Shown: piece by piece, positions 48,992-56,292 of the stretch | How the letters are laid out: each line of letters starts with the position of its first letter | How positions within the stretch are numbered: position 1 is the stretch's first letter | Assembly: GCF_009914755.1 (NCBI RefSeq) | Contig: NC_060927.1 | Origin: the human T2T-CHM13v2.0 reference genome, Homo sapiens | DNA: 64,000 nucleotides | Reading direction: 5' to 3' (one strand) | Program-made: the position numbers and the translations under genes | The notes under the pieces: model-generated | The model's input: the letters and a program-made list of their open reading frames with translations, nothing else | Database searches by the model: none | What the model was told of the DNA's origin: nothing

Positions 48992-49521
48992 TGAAATGCA
49001 TTTCTTAAGTAAGAATACTTGAAAGCGAAAATCAATGATCCATGGGCAAATGGATCAGAATGGATATTTTCTTAGCAGGCATGAAAACACATTAATTTCT
49101 TTAAACATCTCCATCAGAGTTCTGGGATGACCAGGTGCATTGTCAATGTGCAATAATATTTTGAAAAGAATCTATTGCCGAGCAGTAGGTCTTGATGGTG
49201 GGCTTAAATGTAATCAGTAAACTATGCTGTAAACAAATGTGCTATATTAAAAGATTTGTCATTCTATTTACAGAGCACAGGCAGAGTCAATTTAGTATAC
49301 TTTTAAGGGTCTTAGAATTTTTGGAAAGGCACATAAGCTTTGGTTTCAATTTAAAGTCACCAGCTGCATTAGCTACTAACAAGAGAGTTTGCGTCTCCTT
49401 TGAAATTTTAAAGCTGGGCATTTGCTTCTCTTTAGCTGCTTCCCTTTAGTCCTAGATGGCATCTTCTTCCAATATAAGGTTGTTTTACCTCCATGGAAAA
49501 CCTGTTTTTTACTGTGGATGC

Positions 49522-49932
49522 TTTCATGCACCTCCATGTGAAGAGACCACCAAACAGGCTTTGTGTGAGCAATAAAGCTTTTAATCACCCGAGAGCAGGC
49601 GGGCTGAATCCGAAAAGAGACTCTGCGAAGGGAGATAAGGGTGGAGCTGTCTTATAGGATTTGGGGAGATAAAGGAAAATTACAGTCAAAGGGGGGTTGT
49701 TCTCTGGCGGGCAGAGTTGGGGTCACAAGGTGCTCAGTAGGGGAGCTTTTGAGCCAGGATGAGCCAGGAGAAGGAATTTCACAAGACAATGTCATCAGTT
49801 AAGGCAGGAACAGGCCATTTTCACTTCTTTTGTGGTGGAATGTCATCAGTTAAGGCAGGAACTGGCCTTCTGGATGTGTACATGCAGGTCACAGGGGGTA
49901 TGATGGCTTAGCTTGGGCTCAGAGGCCTGACA
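49522..49932 (-). mobile_element. HERV-H 3' LTR (LTR7 family), complete
   Basis: Minus strand reads TGTCAGGCCTCTGAGCCCAAGCTAAGCC...GCATGAAA; preceded by the purine-rich PPT (49933-49945); left TSD GATGC at 49517-49521. Confidence 0.97.
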
Positions 49933-51310
49933 TTCCTGTCTTCTTATATTAATAAGAAAAATAAAATGAAATAGTGGTAAAGTGTTGGGATGGTGAAAAT
50001 TTTTGGAGGTGGTATGGAGAGATAATGGGCAATGTTTCTCAGGGCTGCTTCGAGCAGGATTAGGGGTGGCGTGGGAACCTAGAGTGGGAGAGATTAAGCT
50101 GAAGGAAGATTTTGTGGTAAAAGGTGATATTGTGGAGTTGTTAGAAGAAATATTTGTGGTGTAGAATTATTGGTGATGGCCTGGATACGGTTTTGTATGA
50201 ATTGAAAAACTAAATGGAATAAGAGAAGGAGAAAAACAGGTATAAAAGGTCTAAGAATTGGGAGGACCTAGGACATCTGATTAGAGAGTGCCTAAGGAGA
50301 TTCAGCATAGTCCTGCCAGCAGATTATTTATTTACTTCAAGAGTTTAGAGTGGCAGTATGGGGATAGCACCAGGAGATATCAACTGTGATGGCTTGGAGA
50401 AATAATGCAAACTGGCAGTGTAAACAAGAGTAGGGCATGTATGAGTAGTTGAGAACAGTGAATAGGAGTATGACTAGATAGAAGATAGTAGGGATGACAA
50501 GTTTTTTGGGGGCACAGTCTAAGTTGGTCTGGTGTCTGGAATGAGACTGGGGCCTAATAAAAAGGAGCATCTATACAGGAGCTCAAATGGGCTGTACACT
50601 GTAGCATCCTGAGGACAGGTCTGACTTCTGAGAAGCGAAAGTGGTAAAAGTATTGTCCAGTCCTTTTTAAGTTGTTGGCTGAGCTTGGTGAGGTGTGTTT
50701 TTAAAAGACATTTAGTCCATTCTACTTTTCTTGAAGACGGAGGACCATAAGGGATAAAGGTTTCACTGAATACTAAGAGCCTGAAAAACTGCTTGGCTGA
50801 TTTGACTAATAAAGGCTGGTCTGTTATCAGACTGTATAGTGGTGGGAAGGCTAAACTGAGGAATTATGTCTGACAGAAAGGAAGAAATGACTGCGGTGGC
50901 CTTCTCAGACCCTGTAGGAAAGGCCTCTACCTATCCAGTGAAAGTGTCTACCTAGACTAAGAGGTATTTTAGTTATCTGACTCGGGACATGTTGAGTAAA
51001 GCTAATTTGCCAGTCCTGGGTGGGGGCAAATCCTTGAGCTTGATGTGTAGGGAAGGGAGGGGGCCTGAATAATCCCTGAGGAGTAGTAGAATAGCAGATG
51101 GAACACTGAGAAGTTATTTCCTTGAGGATAGATTTCCACGATGGAAAGGAAATGAGAGGTTCTAAGAGGTGGGATAGTGGCTTGTACTATAGCATAGCCT
51201 GCCTTTGCTGGTGTGGCAATTAGGCCTGGTGGAACTGCCATCAATAAATCAAGCATGATCAAGGCGAGGAAGAGGAAAGAAGGAAATATGGGGAAATGAG
51301 GTGAATGTCA
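49933..51310 (-). mobile_element. HERV-H internal 3' half (3' pol/env remnants)
   Basis: Minus strand starts TGACATTCACCTCATTTCCCC, continuing the pol sequence that stops at 55156 on the plus strand, and runs to the PPT. Confidence 0.9.
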
Positions 51311-51446
51311 AGAAGAGTTTATAAGCTTTAAAAGGCCATGCTGTAACAGGTGAATGATAACAGGCTTTAATCCTTTCAAAGCATGCTATAGGATAAGATA
51401 TTGGCATTGAGCAGGGTAAGAGTGATTAGGTTTTAATAGGATGGTA
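51310..51446 (-). repeat. 137-bp inverted duplicate of HERV-H pol 54183-54319
   Basis: Ungapped alignment with 10 mismatches in 137 nt. Confidence 0.97.
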
Positions 51447-51728
51447 GCCTTAACTGATGACATTGTCTTGTGAAATTCCTTCTCCTGGCTCATCCTGGCT
51501 CAAAAGCTCCCCTACTGAGCACCTTGTGACCCCCACTCTGCTTGCCAGAGAACAACCCCCCTTACTGTAATTTTCCTTTATCTACCCAAATCCTATAAAA
51601 CAGCCCCACCCTTATCTCCCTTCGCTGAGTCTCTTTTCAGACTCAGCCCGCCTGCACCCAGGTGATTAAAAGCTTTATTGCTCACACAAAGCCTGTTTGG
51701 TAGTCTCTTCACACAGACACACATGAAA
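51447..51728 (+). mobile_element. HERV-H 5' LTR (LTR7 family) lacking the first ~127 nt of U3
   Basis: Matches the reverse complement of 49522-49805; TATAAAA at 51594-51600; ATTAAA at 51665-51670; followed by the PBS. Confidence 0.97.
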
Positions 51729-51730
51729 TT

Positions 51731-51748
51731 TGGTGCCGTGACTCGGAT
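51731..51748 (+). other. Primer-binding site for tRNA-His
   Basis: TGGTGCCGTGACTCGGAT is complementary to the 3' 18 nt of tRNA-His. Confidence 0.95.
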
Positions 51749-51871
51749 CGGAGGACCTCCCTTAAGAGATCAATCCCCTGTCCTCCTGTTCTTTGCTCCG
51801 TGAGAAAGATCCACCTATGACCTCAGGTCCTCAGACCAACCAGCCCAAGAAATATCTCACCAATTTCAAAT

Positions 51872-51880
51872 CCAGTAAGC
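51872..51880 (+). promoter_or_regulatory. HERV-H leader splice-donor position (CCA|GTAAGC)
   Basis: About 150 nt downstream of the LTR, where the HERV-H major donor lies; the -1 base is A rather than G, so it may be weakened. Confidence 0.55.
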
Positions 51881-52499
51881 GGCCTATTTTTACTCTCTTC
51901 TCCAACCTCCCTCACTATCCCTCAACCACTTTCTCCTTTCAATCTTGGTGCCACACTTCAATCTCTCCCTTCTCTTAATTTCAGTTCCTTTCATTTTCTG
52001 GTAGAGACAAAGGAGACACGTTTTATCCATGGACCCAAAACTCTGGCACCAGTCACGGACTGGGAAGGGAGCCTTCCCTTGGTGTTTAATCATTTCAGGG
52101 ATGGATGCCTCTCTGATTATTCACTCACGTTTCAGAGGTGTCAGACCATGCAAGGACGCCTGCCTTGATCCTTCACCCTTAGTGGCAAGTCCTGCTTTTC
52201 TGGGGGAGGGGGAAGTACCCCAACCTCTTCTCTCCGTGGTTCTACCCCTTCTCTGCTTTTCTGGGGGAGGGGCAAGAACCCCTCAACCCCTTCTCCTTCA
52301 CCCTTAGCGACAAGTCCCACTTTTCTAGGGGACAAGAATCCCCAACCCCTTATTTCCATGCCCCGACCCCTTTCCCACTTTTCTGAAGGGTAAGAACCCC
52401 CGAACCCCTTCCCTCCGTGTCTCTACTCTCTCTTTTCTCTGGGCTTGCCTCCTTCACTATAGGCAACCTTCCACCCTCCATTCCTCCATCTCCCTTAGC

Positions 52500-53720
52500 C
52501 TGTGGTCTCAAGAACTTAAAACCTCTTCAACTCACACCTGACCTAAAACCTAAATGCCTTATTTTCTTCTGCAATGCTGCTTGACCTCAATACAAACTTG
52601 ACAGTGGTTCCAAATAGCCAGAAAATGACACTTTCAATTTTTCCATCCTGCAAGATCTAAATAATTCTTGTCATAAAATAGGCAAATGGCCTGAGGTGCC
52701 TGATGTCCAGGCATTCTTTTACACATCGGTCCCTCCCTAGTCTCTGTGCCCAGTGCAACTCGTCCCAAATCTTCCTTCTTTCCCTCCCGCCTGTACCCTC
52801 AGTCCCAACCCCAAGCATCGCTGAGTCTTTCTAATCTTCCTTTTCTACAGACCCATCTGACCTCTCCCCTCCTCCCCAGGCTGCTCCTTGCCAGGCCAAG
52901 CTAGGGCCGAATTCTTCCTCAGCCTCCACTCCTCCACCGGGTAATCTTTTTATCACCTCCCCTCCTTACACCTGGTCCAGTTTACAGTTTCATTCTGTGA
53001 GTAGCCCTCCCCTACCTGCCCAGCAATTTCCTCTTAAAAAGATGGCTGAAGCTAAAGGCATAGTCAAGGTTAATGCTCCTTTTTCTTTATCAGACCTCTC
53101 CCAAATCAGTGAGCATTTAGGCTCTTTCATCAAATATGAAAAACCCAGCCCAGTTCATGGCTCATTCCGCAGCAACCCTGAGACGCTTTACAGCCCTAGA
53201 CCCTAAAAGGTCAAAAGGCCGTCTTATTCTCAATATACATTTTATTACCCAATCTGCTCCTGACATTAAATAAAACTACAAAAATTAAATTCCAGCCCTC
53301 AAACCCCACAACAGGACTTAATTAACCTCACCTTCAAGGTGTACAATAATAGAGTAGAAGCAGCCAAGTAGCAATGTATTTCTGAGTTGCAATTCCTTGC
53401 CTCCACTGTGAGACAAACCCCAGCCACATCTCCAGCACACAAGAACTCCAAATGCCTGAACCACAGCTCCCAGTGGTTCCTCCAGAACCTCCTCCCCCAG
53501 GAGCTTGCTACAAGTGCCGGAAATCTGGCCACTGGGCCAAGGGATGCCCACAGCCCAGGATTCCTCCTAAGCCTTATCCCATCTGTGTGGGACCCCACTG
53601 AAAATCAGACTGTTCAACTCACCTGGCAGCCACTCCCAGAGCCCCTGGAACTCTGGCCCAAGGCTCTCTGACTGACTCCTTCCCAGATCTTCTCGACTTA
53701 GTGGCTGAAGACTGACACTG
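52500..53720 (+). pseudogene. gag: HERV-H gag remnant with an NC zinc knuckle
   Basis: CYKCRKSGHWAKGC (CCHC) at 53506-53547; the second knuckle is broken by a stop; start is approximate. Confidence 0.8.
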
Positions 53721-53781
53721 CCTGATCACCTGGGAAGCCCCCTAGACCATCACGGACACCAAGCTTTGAGTAACTCTCACA

Positions 53782-54141
53782 GTGGAAAGTAAGTCCGTCC
53801 CCTTCTTAATCAATATGGAGGCTACCCACTCCACATTACCTTCTTTTCAAAGGCCTGTTTCCCTTGCTTCCATAACTGTTGTTCATATTGACGGCCAGGC
53901 TTCTAAACCTCTTAAAACTCCCCAACTCTGGTGCCAACTTAAACAATACTCTTTTCAGCACTCCTTTATAGTTATCCCCACCTGCCCAGTTCCCTTATTA
54001 GGCCGAGATGCTTTAACTAAATTATCTGCTTCCCTGACTAGTCCTGGGCTACAGCCACACCTCATTGCCGCCTTTTCCCCCAGTTCAAAGCCTCCTTCAC
54101 ATCCTCCCCTTGTATCTCCCCACCTTAACCCACAAGTATAA
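53782..54141 (+). pseudogene. pro: HERV-H protease remnant
   Basis: FLINMEATHSTL (degenerate DTGA site) and PVPLLGRD motif. Confidence 0.85.
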
Positions 54142-54162
54142 GACACCTCTACTCCCTCTTTA

Positions 54163-55156
54163 GTGACCGATCATGCACCCCTTACCATCCCATTAAAACC
54201 TAATCACTCTTACCCTGATCAATGCCAATATCCCATCCCACAGCATGCTTTGAAAGGATTAAATCCTGTTATCACTCGCCTGTTACAGCATGGCCTTTTA
54301 AAGCCTATAAACTCTTCTTACCATTCCCCCATTTTACCTGTCCTAAAACCAGACAAGGCTTACAGGTTAGTTCAGAATCTGCGCCTTATCAACCAAATTG
54401 TTTTGCCTATCCACCCCGTGGTGCCAAACTCCTATACTCTCCTATCCTCAATACCTCCCTCCACAACCCATTATTCTGTTCTGGATCTCAAACATGCTTT
54501 CTTTACTATTCCTTTGCACCCTTCATCCCAGCCTCTCTTTGCTTTCACTTAGACTGACCCTGACACCCATTAGGCTCAGCAAATTACCTGGGCTGTACTG
54601 CCACAAGGCTTCACAGACAGCTCCCATTACTTCAGTCAAGCCCAAATTTCATCCTCAGCTGTTACCTATCTCGGCATAATTCTCATAAAAACACACGTGC
54701 TCTCCCTGCTGATCGTGTCCGATTAATCTCCCAAACCTCAATCCCTTACAAAACAACTCCTTTCCTTCCTATGCATGGTTACTGTGGTCAGGATTCTTAC
54801 ACAAGAGCCGGGACCGCCCCCTGTAGCCTTTCTGTCCAAACAACTTGACCTTACTGTTTTAGCCTAGCCCTCATGTCTGTGTGCAGTGGCTGCCGCTGCT
54901 TTAATACTTTTAGAGGCCCTAAAAATCACAAACTATGCTCAACTCACTCTCTACATTTCTCATTACTTCCAAAATCTATTTTCTTCCTCATACCTGATGC
55001 ATATACTTTCTGCTCCCCGGCTCCTTCAGCTGTACTCACTCTTTGTTAAGTCCCACAATTACCATTGTTCCTGGCCCAGACTTCAGTCCGGCCTCCCGCA
55101 TTATTCCTGATACCACACCTGACCCCCATGATTGTATCTCTCTGATCCACCTGACA
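54163..55156 (+). pseudogene. pol: HERV-H pol (RT) remnant with stops; ends at the host junction
   Basis: QYPIP...SPILPVLKPDKAYRLVQNLRLINQIV...SVLDLKHAFFTIPL; right TSD GATGC at 55157-55161. Confidence 0.92.
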
Positions 55157-56292
55157 GATGCCTTCATTAACGATCTCATGTAGATTTTCTGGATAACTTC
55201 CTGCAGCTTGTCCATCAGCACTTACTGCTTCACTTTGCCTTGTTTTGTTATGGAGATGGCTCTTTTCTTAAACTCTATGAGCCAGCCACTTCTAGTTACC
55301 AATTTTTCTTCTGCAGCTTCCTCACTTCTCTCAGCTTTCACAGAATTGAAGAGAGGCAGGGCCTTGCTCCGGAATAGGCTTGGGCTTAAGGGAATATTAT
55401 GGCTGGTTTGATCTTCTATCCACACCATTAAAACTTCTTCCCTATCAGCAATAAGCCTGCTTTGCTTTCTTATCATTTGTGTATTTACTAGAACAGCACT
55501 TTTAATTTTTGTTAAGAACCTTTCCTATGCATTCACAACTTGGCTAGATATTTTGTGCAAGGAACCTAGCTTTGGGCCTATCTCAGCTTGTGACATGTCT
55601 TCCTCATTGAGCTTAATCATAACCAGCTTTTGACTAAAAGTGAGAGACATAGAGGCCATTATAGAATTATTAATTGGCCTAATTTCTATATCACTGGTCT
55701 CAGGAAATAGGAAAACCCAAAGAGAGGGATACAGATGGAAGAATGTTTTTCAATGAAACAGTCAGAACACACACAACATGTATCAATTAAATTCTTCATC
55801 TTATATGGACATGGATTGTGACATAACAGAACAATTACAACAGTAACATCAAAGATCACTGATCGCAGATTACCATACAGGTATAATAATAGTGAACAAG
55901 TTTGAAATATTGTGAGAATTACCAAAATGTGACATGGAGACATGAAGTGAGCTCATGCTGTTGGAAAAATAGCACTGATAGACTTGCTGGACGAAGGGTT
56001 GCTGCAAATCTTCTAATTGTAAAAGGTACAATATATGTGAAGCACAGTGAGATCTGATCCAATAAAACAAAGTATGCCTTCATGTGTTTTTCAAATAGTT
56101 TCTCCCAGTCTGTGGCTTGTCTTCTCATTCTCATTTTAGTGCCTTTCACAGAAAAGTTATTAATTTTAATGAAATGCAGCTTATCAATTATTTCATCATG
56201 ATTTGTGCCTTTGTGATGTATCTAAAAGGTCATCACTAAACCTAAGGTCATCTAGATTTTCTCCTACATTATCTTATAGGAGTTTTACAGTT

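What the first reader, a model, noticed from the sequence alone, without database searches (positions are those of the whole stretch)
49517..55161. HERV-H provirus with an internal inversion but an intact 5-bp TSD
Seen: GATGC - complete 3' LTR(-) - PPT and 3' internal(-) - 137-bp pol duplicate(-) - U3-truncated 5' LTR(+) - PBS-His - gag - pro - pol(+) - GATGC. Tigger1 reads continuously across a single GATGC. The pol sequence that stops at 55156 (+) resumes at about 51305 on the minus strand (...CACCTGACA|TTCACC...). Known: normal proviruses have direct LTRs at both ends, and HERV-H makes 5-bp TSDs. Inference: this is one integrant whose 5' ~3.7 kb is flipped, not two back-to-back insertions. 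A repeat annotator would likely report it as unrelated fragments.
Basis: partly seen in the sequence, partly recalled or inferred. Interest (0 to 1): 0.85.

Follow-up and report, generated by a model that had tools for sequence, protein, structure and literature searches.

The report
HERV-H provirus with flipped 5' half
A single ancient HERV-H retrovirus copy sits inside an old Tigger-type transposon with its first 3.7 kb turned round, a tidy fossil of how proviral DNA gets broken and rejoined, but an ordinary dead element otherwise.

Summary
GATGC flanks a 5,635-bp HERV-H insert, and 9 of 9 other Tigger-type copies read through the site with room for one 5-mer only, so it is a true 5-bp target-site duplication. 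In 7 of 7 other HERV-H copies the pol sequence ending at 55156 (+) continues directly into what lies at 51310 downward on the minus strand.

The insert is one provirus of about 5.6 kb whose segment from LTR position 128 to a pol site is inverted.

New details:
- The breakpoint 7-mer CCTGACA is the reverse complement of the LTR start TGTCAGG.
- TGACA is present at both breakpoints.
- The first 127 nt of U3 are missing.
- The inner junction carries a 136-137-nt copy of the element's own pol. It has seven strand-coordinated non-CpG C>T changes (P about 4e-5 to 3e-4).

Most likely this was a break-and-rejoin inversion with microhomology and templated-insertion scars, after integration (about 0.5). 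A product rearranged before integration, with the pol site serving as a surrogate LTR end, is not excluded (about 0.35). The event is old, not an assembly artefact. Ape orthologues would decide. Interest is modest.

The parts
49517..49521 (.). left copy of the 5-bp target-site duplication GATGC
   Evidence: Read. 9 of 9 other Tigger-type copies leave room for one 5-mer only.
49522..49932 (-). complete LTR (411 nt), the 3' LTR of the provirus; it overlaps the RefSeq enhancer feature 49711-50211 given in the hub's table
   Evidence: Its reverse complement starts TGTCAGG and ends CATGAAA, like 9 comparator proviruses. It aligns full length to the LTRs of L019 and L021.
49933..51310 (-). 3' internal part, from pol site X-4 to the polypurine tract; holds an integrase-core remnant at 50766-50930
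   Evidence: Colinear with L019 q4508-6308 at 93.6%. Pfam rve E 5e-4, below the curated cut-off.
51306..51310 (-). TGTCA, reverse complement of TGACA; the 5 nt present at both breakpoints
   Evidence: Alignments of L003, L005, L006, L008 and others overlap by 3-5 nt at both arms. Sequence shown.
51311..51446 (-). filler at the inner junction: a copy of the element's own pol (source 54183-54319), with seven filler-only non-CpG C>T changes on its sense strand
   Evidence: Ungapped, 127 of 137 identical, sister to its source with support 82/80. Per-site table. Binomial P 4e-5 to 3e-4.
51447..51728 (+). 5' LTR lacking its first 127 nt of U3
   Evidence: Aligns to L019 from LTR position 128. 21 differences in 284 columns against the LTR(-).
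51731..51748 (+). primer-binding site TGGTGCCGTGACTCGGAT
   Evidence: Read. Its match to tRNA-His is recalled, not tested.
51729..55156 (+). 5' internal part: leader, gag remnants, protease, N-terminal part of RT, up to pol site X
   Evidence: Pfam Gag_p30 53121-53270, zf-CCHC 53386-53598, RVP 53770-54138, RVT_1 54142-54549. Colinear with L019 up to q4512.
54183..54319 (+). source of the filler, at the start of RT
55150..55156 (+). CCTGACA, the last 7 nt before the host DNA; native pol sequence that is also the reverse complement of the LTR start TGTCAGG
   Evidence: Native pol reads CCACCTGACATTCACC in other copies. LTR start shown. The 7-mer occurs 3 times in the (+) arm.
55157..55161 (.). 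right copy of the target-site duplication GATGC
55225..55749 (-). host repeat: remnants of a pogo/Tigger-type transposase N-terminus
   Evidence: Pfam HTH_Tnp_Tc5 E 2.7e-8 and CENP-B_N E 8.7e-6. The first look found 3,049 candidate copies in the genome; the 39 non-self matches scored were 75-79% identical.

Best explanation
One HERV-H provirus of the common 5.6-5.8-kb deleted form integrated in minus orientation into a Tigger-type fossil and made the 5-bp duplication GATGC.

Later its DNA was broken at a pol site X (between RT and integrase) and within the first 127 nt of the 5' LTR. The 3.7-kb piece between the breaks was rejoined the wrong way round.

- Outer junction: the pol end ...CCTGACA annealed to the last 7 nt of the LTR stub, which are the same 7 nt in this orientation. 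No visible LTR remnant is left and the target-site duplication stays intact.
- Inner junction: up to 127 nt of U3 were lost. A 136-137-nt stretch of the element's own pol was copied in by repair synthesis. That new strand annealed to the other broken end through an imperfect match (12 of 19). While single-stranded it was hit by a cytosine deaminase, giving seven C>T changes on one strand.

Shown: the anatomy, the single integration, the junction sequences, the cluster, and that the event is old.
Inferred: the order of events, the repair pathway (alternative end joining or template switching), the deaminase, and that it happened after integration.

The confidence given is for the whole statement, including 'after integration'. 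That it is one rearranged integrant I hold at about 0.93.
For: - Single integration: true target-site duplication and exact empty site, 9 of 9 Tigger copies. Arms are complementary at X in 7 of 7 copies. The length fits the comparators. Private divergence is 2.8% in both internal arms.
- Microhomology at the outer junction: CCTGACA equals the reverse complement of TGTCAGG. The 7-mer occurs only 3 times in the 3.7-kb arm and 2-5 times in four comparators, so a random breakpoint ends on one with odds of about 5e-4.
- Repair scars at the inner junction: 127 nt lost. The filler is sister to the element's own pol and shares all 5 sub-lineage variants with it. There is 12-of-19 homeology past the filler with 1 nt of strict overlap, and a blunt join on the other side.
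- Cluster: 7 filler-only non-CpG C>T among 41 C, against 0-3 in 10 comparators and a background of 2-3%.
- Timing hint: leaving the cluster out, filler and source differ at 3 of 137 sites, against 21 of 284 between the LTRs. Poisson P is 0.01-0.23 depending on the expectation used.
- Age: the filler has diverged from its source, so this is not an assembly artefact.
- Uniqueness: this is the only copy in which pol X abuts foreign DNA. Of 12 pattern matches, 10 are point variants of the native sequence and 1 differs otherwise and was not resolved.
Against: - Nothing in one genome fixes the time of the event.
- The outer junction reads the same whether CCTGACA is pol's own or the LTR's.
- The 5-nt overlap equals the stagger of this virus's integrase. 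The pol site matches 9 nt of the unprocessed LTR end (CCTGACA^TT) with the break exactly after CA. An integrase-made end would look like this.
- Under break-and-rejoin, the absence of any LTR remnant beyond 7 nt is a coincidence of perhaps 1 in 20-100 (my estimate).
- If the seven C>T changes are counted as ordinary changes, filler-source divergence (7.3%) equals LTR-LTR divergence (7.4%), which would put the event at integration.
- No change private to this locus is shared by filler and source: 0 shared against 2 source-only.
- The CC context of the cluster (5 of 7) is not significant on its own (P 0.08). The apparent spread of the cluster into the flanks is matched by comparators.
Confidence: 0.5

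Rival explanations
1. The DNA was already rearranged before it entered the chromosome. Reverse-transcriptase template switching, or breakage and end joining of the unintegrated linear DNA, made a molecule with the order 3' part(-), filler, U3-truncated 5' part(+). Integrase then used the true U5 end and, as a surrogate second end, the pol sequence CCTGACA^TT. That sequence mimics 9 nt of the unprocessed U3 end. The result was a normal 5-bp target-site duplication.
For: - The break is exactly after the CA of a 9-nt mimic of the LTR end. The PPT/LTR junction GGCAGGAATGTCAGG is seen in most of the listed copies, and native pol reads CCTGACATT.
- The 5-nt overlap equals the length of the target-site duplication.
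- The target-site duplication is perfect with no LTR remnant.
- Counted in full, filler-source divergence (10 of 137) equals LTR-LTR divergence (21 of 284).
- A C>T cluster, 5 of 7 in CC context, is what APOBEC3G does to retroviral single-stranded DNA (enzyme preference recalled).
- Internal inversions are a recognised class of defective HIV proviruses (PMC10842655, passages).
- Intramolecular integration makes inverted products in LTR elements (PMC7197481, passages).
Against: - It needs several rare steps in a row: a DNA end at or within 2 nt of X, loss of the true U3 end, and an integrase complex built on a non-LTR end.
- The inner junction does not show the LTR end joined to X, as autointegration would give. 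Instead 127 nt are gone and a filler is present.
- Full autointegration gives circles, which cannot integrate (PMC7197481, passages).
- Editing of reverse-transcription intermediates is usually spread along the genome. Here it is confined to 137 nt, and both arms have spectra within the comparators' range.
- No second HERV-H copy ends at this pol site. Of 12 pattern matches only this locus has foreign DNA after X.
Confidence: 0.35
2. Two separate HERV-H insertions lie back to back or nested, each truncated, and the flanking GATGC pair is fortuitous or belongs to one of them.
For: - The two LTRs are not resolved as sisters.
- They are no closer to each other (21 differences in 284 columns) than to the best other LTRs, which are 93-95% identical.
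Against: - The empty site is exact with one 5-mer.
- The two arms complement each other at the same pol position, with a 5-nt overlap, and add up to a normal provirus length.
- 3 of 10 control proviruses also fail to pair in the LTR tree.
- The distance profiles of the two arms correlate (rho 0.49), as in controls (-0.42 to 0.80).
- A nested insertion followed by a deletion would need the same pol position to be hit twice for no reason.
Confidence: 0.04
3. It is an assembly artefact or a very recent, human-specific inversion.
For: None found. Only one assembly could be read.
Against: - The inverted pol copy differs from its source at 10 of 137 sites.
- The inverted LTR pair differs at 21 of 284 columns. 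A misjoin or a recent event would give identical copies.
- The junctions carry a 127-nt loss and a filler, which are not a simple flip.
Confidence: 0.02

Closest known systems
Ordinary HERV-H provirus of the common deleted form (LTR7-type LTRs; family names recalled, no repeat library here)
   Same: LTR termini TGTCAGG...CATGAAA, the PBS two bases after the LTR, gag-pro-RT-integrase remnants, a 5-bp target-site duplication, about 5.6 kb, and 90-95% identity to other copies in this genome (the first look found 1,022 candidates).
   Different: The segment from LTR position 128 to pol X is inverted, so the LTRs face each other. 127 nt of U3 are missing. A 136-137-nt pol copy sits at the inner junction. 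One end of the insert is pol, not LTR.
Defective proviruses with internal inversion (HIV-1 and HIV-2 reservoir sequencing)
   Same: A retroviral provirus with an inverted internal segment, often together with deletions (PMC10842655, passages).
   Different: As I recall, those are defined between primers in or near the LTRs, so both ends stay normal. Here the inversion reaches the very end of the insert. Those arise before integration; here the timing is open.
Autointegration (intramolecular integration) inversion circles of retroviruses and LTR retrotransposons
   Same: An inverted portion separates two LTRs, and a target-size duplication is expected at the internal site (PMC7197481, passages citing Garfinkel 2006). 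Here TGACA, 5 nt, is at both breakpoints.
   Different: The products are circles and dead ends. The LTR end should be joined to the internal site, which is not seen here, and an integration target has no reason to look like an LTR end.
Chromosomal inversions and complex rearrangements made by microhomology-mediated end joining or template switching (Pol theta end joining, MMBIR)
   Same: Microhomology at a junction, loss of bases, a templated insertion copied from nearby, and tolerance of mismatched microhomology. The topic is seen only in the search listing and abstract starts of PMC8421209, PMC13015775 and PMC11724301; the rest is recalled.
   Different: As I recall, templated insertions are usually tens of bases; this one is 136-137 nt. 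The whole event lies inside one provirus, and one junction falls on the last 7 nt of the element.
L1 5' inversions by twin priming
   Same: A retroelement insert with an inverted 5' part and an intact target-site duplication. These are common among small human inversions (abstract start of 10.1101/2021.12.20.472354).
   Different: That mechanism belongs to target-primed reverse transcription of non-LTR elements. HERV-H integrates as double-stranded DNA through an integrase, so the likeness is in outcome only.
Germline APOBEC3G-like mutation clusters in hominid genomes
   Same: A strand-coordinated run of C>T in a short stretch, partly in CC context (PMC4864454, abstract; this locus).
   Different: Here the cluster sits in a stretch of repair-synthesised or template-switched DNA at a rearrangement junction. 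The context preference is not significant for the seven core sites.

Membership tests
HERV-H provirus | LTRs with the family's termini and high identity to other copies | tested here: met
   TGTCAGG...CATGAAA as in 9 comparators. LTR 92-95% identical to the non-self matches scored.
HERV-H provirus | Primer-binding site complementary to tRNA-His | not tested
   An 18-mer PBS is present at 51731-51748 and conserved in comparators. Its complementarity to tRNA-His is recalled; no tRNA gene was fetched.
HERV-H provirus | gag-pro-pol order with retroviral domains | tested here: met
   Gag_p30, zf-CCHC, RVP and RVT_1 in that order on the plus strand, and rve on the minus strand. All are broken by stops; Gag_p30 and rve score below the curated cut-offs.
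HERV-H provirus | 5-bp target-site duplication | tested here: met
   GATGC on both sides with an exact empty site. 7 of 9 comparators have perfect 5-bp duplications.
HERV-H provirus | Direct LTRs at both ends | tested here: not met
   The LTRs are inverted relative to each other, one is internal and truncated, and the right end of the insert is pol. It is a rearranged member.
Autointegration product | LTR end joined to an internal site of the same DNA | tested here: not met
   At the inner junction the LTR starts at position 128 and is separated from pol X by a 136-137-nt filler.
Autointegration product | Duplication of the internal target, of the integrase's stagger length, at both junctions | tested here: inconclusive
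   TGACA (5 nt) is at both breakpoints, but it is also part of the 7-nt identity with the LTR terminus.
Microhomology-mediated end joining or template-switch rearrangement | Microhomology at junctions | tested here: met
   7 nt at the outer junction. 1 nt strict plus 12-of-19 homeology at filler/pol. 0 nt at filler/LTR.
Microhomology-mediated end joining or template-switch rearrangement | Templated insertion copied from nearby sequence, with loss of bases | tested here: met
   The filler is sister to the element's own pol 2.7 kb away. 127 nt of U3 are lost.
Microhomology-mediated end joining or template-switch rearrangement | Event took place on chromosomal DNA | not testable with these tools
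   Needs orthologous loci of other primates; only this genome is held.
APOBEC-type mutation cluster | Strand-coordinated C>T run far above background | tested here: met
   7 of 41 non-CpG C in the filler, all on one strand. Comparators show 0-3. P 4e-5 to 3e-4.
APOBEC-type mutation cluster | Enzyme-specific dinucleotide context | tested here: inconclusive
   CC in 5 of 7 against 15 of 42 C sites, P 0.08. For the wider 21-site run, 13 of 21 against 30 of 106, P 0.005, but the run's limits were chosen after seeing the data.

The most novel reading that the evidence does not exclude
The insert is a germline fossil of an aberrant integration. The viral DNA was rearranged before it entered the chromosome. 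The integrase then accepted an internal pol sequence, a 9-nt mimic of the unprocessed LTR end cut exactly after CA, as its second DNA end and made a normal 5-bp target-site duplication. The single-strand deamination cluster in the filler would then record restriction-factor attack on the same replication intermediate.
Probability: 0.3. Interest if true: 0.55.

Novelty: new member of a known kind. Interest (0 to 1): 0.3.

Why it matters
Its importance is modest.

- It is a clean, fully resolved example of how a provirus can be rearranged without touching its flanks. All three junctions are readable, and a mutation cluster marks the repair or replication intermediate.
- Such loci can be mistaken for two elements. 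The head-to-head LTR pair misleads LTR-based dating and promoter orientation calls.
- Only the minus-strand LTR is complete here, and it overlaps an annotated enhancer.
- If ape orthologues showed that the structure was there from the start, it would be rare natural evidence that a retroviral integrase can use an internal LTR-like sequence as a DNA end.
- The two searches aimed at the question (HERV-H, inversion, provirus; HERV-H, target site duplication, rearranged) gave no listed title or abstract start on an inverted HERV-H provirus or this locus. Only listings were read, and subscription journals are not covered.

Tried and rejected
- LTR tree to prove the two LTRs are siblings. The tree is a star and the window pair is unresolved. 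7 of 10 control pairs cluster and 3 do not, so it is uninformative.
- Best-hit ranking of each LTR. Each LTR has closer matches elsewhere (95% and 94%) than its partner. This is expected in a star phylogeny and is not evidence of two elements.
- Search for other copies that end at pol X. 12 matches were found. Only this locus has foreign DNA after X, 10 are point variants of the native sequence, and 1 (L052) differs otherwise; its locus gave no alignment to the provirus and was not resolved. Copies with more than one mismatch in the 19-mer would be missed.
- Search for the seamless inverted junction (pol antisense directly followed by the LTR start) elsewhere. There were 432 matches at up to 3 mismatches, none exact. 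Most listed ones are the native PPT/LTR junction. None of the 5 best loci inspected has pol next to the LTR; the other 427 were not inspected.
- Idea that the C>T cluster runs across the whole inner junction on one chromosomal strand (21 sites, 51218-51765). Rejected as a firm claim. The limits were chosen after seeing the data, 6 sites are CpG, and the leader region shows as many G>A in comparators (window 10 of 122, comparators 1-11).
- Idea of a general strand asymmetry between the arms. Rates lie within the comparators' range.
- Dating from filler-source divergence. The answer depends on whether the seven C>T count as ordinary changes.
- Distance-profile correlation of the two arms. Rho is 0.49 and controls range from -0.42 to 0.80, so it is compatible but weak.
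- Nested insertion plus deletion between direct CCTGACA repeats. Rejected because the same pol position would have to be used twice without cause.
- tRNA-His complementarity of the PBS and the names LTR7 and Tigger1 were not tested, because no repeat library is held.

Full report
**What is there.** The window is human chr3 (T2T-CHM13). Reading 49300-55400 shows the following.

| Feature | Coordinates | Notes |
|---|---|---|
| Target-site duplication, left | 49517-49521 | GATGC |
| LTR(-), complete | 49522-49932 | 411 nt; reverse complement starts TGTCAGGCCTCTGAG, ends GCATGAAA |
| Internal sequence, minus strand | 49933-51310 | pol site X-4 to the polypurine tract |
| Copy of pol, minus strand (filler) | 51310/11-51446 | source is 54183-54319 |
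| Partial LTR(+) | 51447-51728 | starts at LTR position 128 |
| Primer-binding site | 51731-51748 | TGGTGCCGTGACTCGGAT |
| Internal sequence, plus strand | 51729-55156 | ends ...GATCCACCTGACA |
| Target-site duplication, right | 55157-55161 | GATGC |

The repeat finder gives the matching inverted arms. The LTR arms are 49522-49694 / 51556-51728 and 49689-49805 / 51447-51563. The pol arms are 51291-51446 / 54183-54338.

Pfam places Gag_p30, zf-CCHC, RVP and the first half of RVT_1 in that order on the plus strand. It places an integrase-core remnant on the minus strand (E 5e-4, below the curated cut-off). All frames are broken by stops.

**The insertion site.** The left flank finds thousands of copies of an old repeat; the first look gave 3,049 candidates, and the 39 non-self matches scored were 75-79% identical. 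Nine were fetched. In 9 of 9, the left and right flanks of the window align to adjoining positions. The local sequence has the same length as the window's flanks joined through a single GATGC. The right flank encodes HTH_Tnp_Tc5 and CENP-B_N remnants on the minus strand, so the host is a pogo/Tigger-type fossil. The name Tigger1 was not testable. GATGC is therefore a true 5-bp target-site duplication. Among comparator HERV-H proviruses, 7 of 9 have a perfect 5-bp duplication, one has 4 of 5 and one has none.

**One provirus, not two.** The window's own genome can be searched. In 7 of 7 other HERV-H copies, the base aligned to 55156 is followed directly by the sequence that lies at 51305 and downward on the window's minus strand. 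The alignments overlap by 3-5 nt. Native pol reads ...CTCTGATCCACCTGACATTCACCCCATTTCCCC....

Mapped on a colinear provirus (L019, 5,676 bp), the pieces are as follows:
- The (+) arm is LTR position 128 to pol site X.
- The (-) arm is X-4 to the end of the 3' LTR.
- The filler is a stretch of pol that ends 833 nt before X.
- The only missing sequence is the first 127 nt of U3.

The colinear equivalent is about 5,621 bp, against 5,599-5,856 bp in nine comparators. Both internal arms carry 2.8% private substitutions, 37 of 1,333 and 89 of 3,138 sites. The two LTRs share the same set of best relatives. Their distance profiles to ten comparators correlate as well as those of control proviruses (rho 0.49; controls -0.42 to 0.80). 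The LTR tree is a star. It does not pair the window's LTRs, but it also fails for 3 of 10 controls. Two independent truncated insertions would not complement each other to within 5 nt, nor share one target-site duplication.

**The three junctions.**
- **Outer junction (55156/55157).** The last 7 nt, CCTGACA, are native pol and at the same time the exact reverse complement of the LTR start TGTCAGG. With the two bases that follow in native pol (TT), the match extends to 9 nt of the unprocessed LTR end. The PPT/LTR junction reads ..GGAATGTCAGG in most of the listed copies. The 7-mer occurs only 3 times in the 3.7-kb arm, so a random breakpoint would end on one with odds of about 5e-4. The motif was therefore part of the mechanism.
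- **Inner junction, pol/filler (51310).** There is 1 nt of strict overlap. The native continuation of the copied stretch matches the pol sequence beyond X at 12 of 19 positions.
- **Inner junction, filler/LTR (51446/51447).** The join is blunt.

TGACA is present at both breakpoints. This can be read either as a 5-nt duplication of the break site or as the LTR's own terminus.

**The filler.** It is an ungapped copy, 127 of 137 identical to its source. It is sister to the source in a tree with 15 other copies (support 82/80). It shares with the source all five positions at which comparators are polymorphic. It was therefore copied from this element.

Of the 10 differences, 8 are filler-only: seven non-CpG C>T on the sense strand (the window's minus strand) and one CpG G>A. 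Two are source-only transversions. Seven hits among 41 non-CpG cytosines compare with 0-3 in ten comparators and a background of 2-3% (P 4e-5 to 3e-4). Five of the seven are in CC context, which is not significant alone (P 0.08).

A wider run of 21 minus-strand C>T changes (51218-51765; CC in 13 of 21; P 0.005) looks striking. Its limits were chosen after seeing the data, six sites are CpG, and comparators show as many G>A changes in the leader. I count only the filler cluster as established. It points to a spell as single-stranded DNA exposed to a cytosine deaminase. APOBEC3G-like clusters are described in hominid germlines (PMC4864454, abstract).

**Age.** The LTRs differ at 21 of 284 columns (8 CpG-type, 2 gaps). 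Filler and source differ at 10 of 137. The structure is therefore old and is not an assembly artefact. Whether the rearrangement is as old as the integration depends on the seven C>T changes. Counted as ordinary changes, the two divergences are equal (7.3% and 7.4%). Set aside as event-linked, 3 of 137 remain, fewer than expected (Poisson P 0.01-0.23 depending on the expectation). That hints at a later event. No change private to this locus is shared by filler and source (0 shared, 2 source-only), which is too few to decide.

**Mechanism.** The simplest single account is a break-and-rejoin inversion of the integrated provirus.
1. There was one break at X and one within the first 127 nt of the 5' LTR.
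2. The freed 3.7-kb piece flipped.
3. Its pol end annealed to the LTR stub through the 7-nt identity. This removes every visible LTR remnant and leaves the target-site duplication untouched.
4. At the other side, end processing removed U3 sequence.
5. A 3' end was extended on the element's own pol for 136-137 nt.
6. The new strand captured the second end through imperfect homology.

These are the usual scars of alternative end joining or template switching. I saw only the search listings and abstract starts for that literature, and the rest is recalled.

The rival is a molecule rearranged before integration, with integrase using the pol site as a surrogate end. In its favour are the cut exactly after CA in a 9-nt mimic of the LTR end, an overlap equal to the integrase stagger, and the perfect target-site duplication. 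Internal inversions are a known class of defective HIV proviruses (PMC10842655, passages). Autointegration gives inverted products in LTR elements (PMC7197481, passages).

Against it, several rare steps are needed. The inner junction does not show an LTR end joined to X. Full autointegration gives circles. The editing is local rather than genome-wide. No other HERV-H copy in this genome ends at that site. I put the odds at about 0.5 after integration, 0.35 before, and the rest on other histories.

**Comparison and novelty.** This is a rearranged member of a very well known family, and inverted or scrambled proviruses are a known kind. What is unusual is the resolution. The inversion reaches the last 7 nt of the element, the junction motif equals the LTR terminus, and the filler carries a deamination-like cluster. 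The two searches aimed at the question listed no paper whose title or abstract start concerns an inverted HERV-H provirus or this locus. Only listings were read, and the library misses most subscription journals. Primate orthologues would settle the timing at once, and they could not be reached here.

Noticed in passing
window 49711-50211: The RefSeq enhancer feature given in the hub's table covers the U3 part of the complete minus-strand LTR and the adjoining 3' internal sequence. The only complete LTR of this locus points leftwards, away from the gag-pol arm.
   Followed up: no
window 49522-49805 and 51447-51728: The two LTR parts form a 282-284-nt inverted repeat (21 differences in 284 columns) with a 1.6-kb spacer, a potential hairpin or cruciform-forming structure.
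   Followed up: no
window 52169-52414: Short direct repeats of 30-39 nt at spacings of 58-125 nt lie in the leader/pre-gag region (families D1-D3). Comparators L019 and L021 align to this stretch in several registers, and L021 has a 144-nt internal repeat in its own pre-gag region, so copy number seems to vary between copies.
   Followed up: partly
L029 (G000:C12:8787800-8794300): This comparator provirus has no matching target-site duplication (CAAAC against GGAAT). It may be a recombinant between two proviruses. L024 has a 4-of-5 duplication.
   Followed up: no
L020 (G000:C11:122854200-122861200): In this comparator the alignment to the window's plus arm is interrupted. Only a 79-nt match precedes position 2565 of the locus, so its 5' part is replaced or carries an insertion.
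   Followed up: no
window 49522-49560 and 51690-51728: The U5 ends of the two LTRs have decayed at the same CpG sites in opposite directions (CG to TG in one, CG to CA in the other). This inflates the LTR-LTR distance in R-U5 (89% identity against 97% in U3).
   Followed up: partly
window 54197-55156: No private sense-strand G>A change at 108 G sites in the RT part of the plus arm, against 23 of 344 in the rest of that arm. Comparators range from 0 to 9 in this part, so it is within range.
   Followed up: yes
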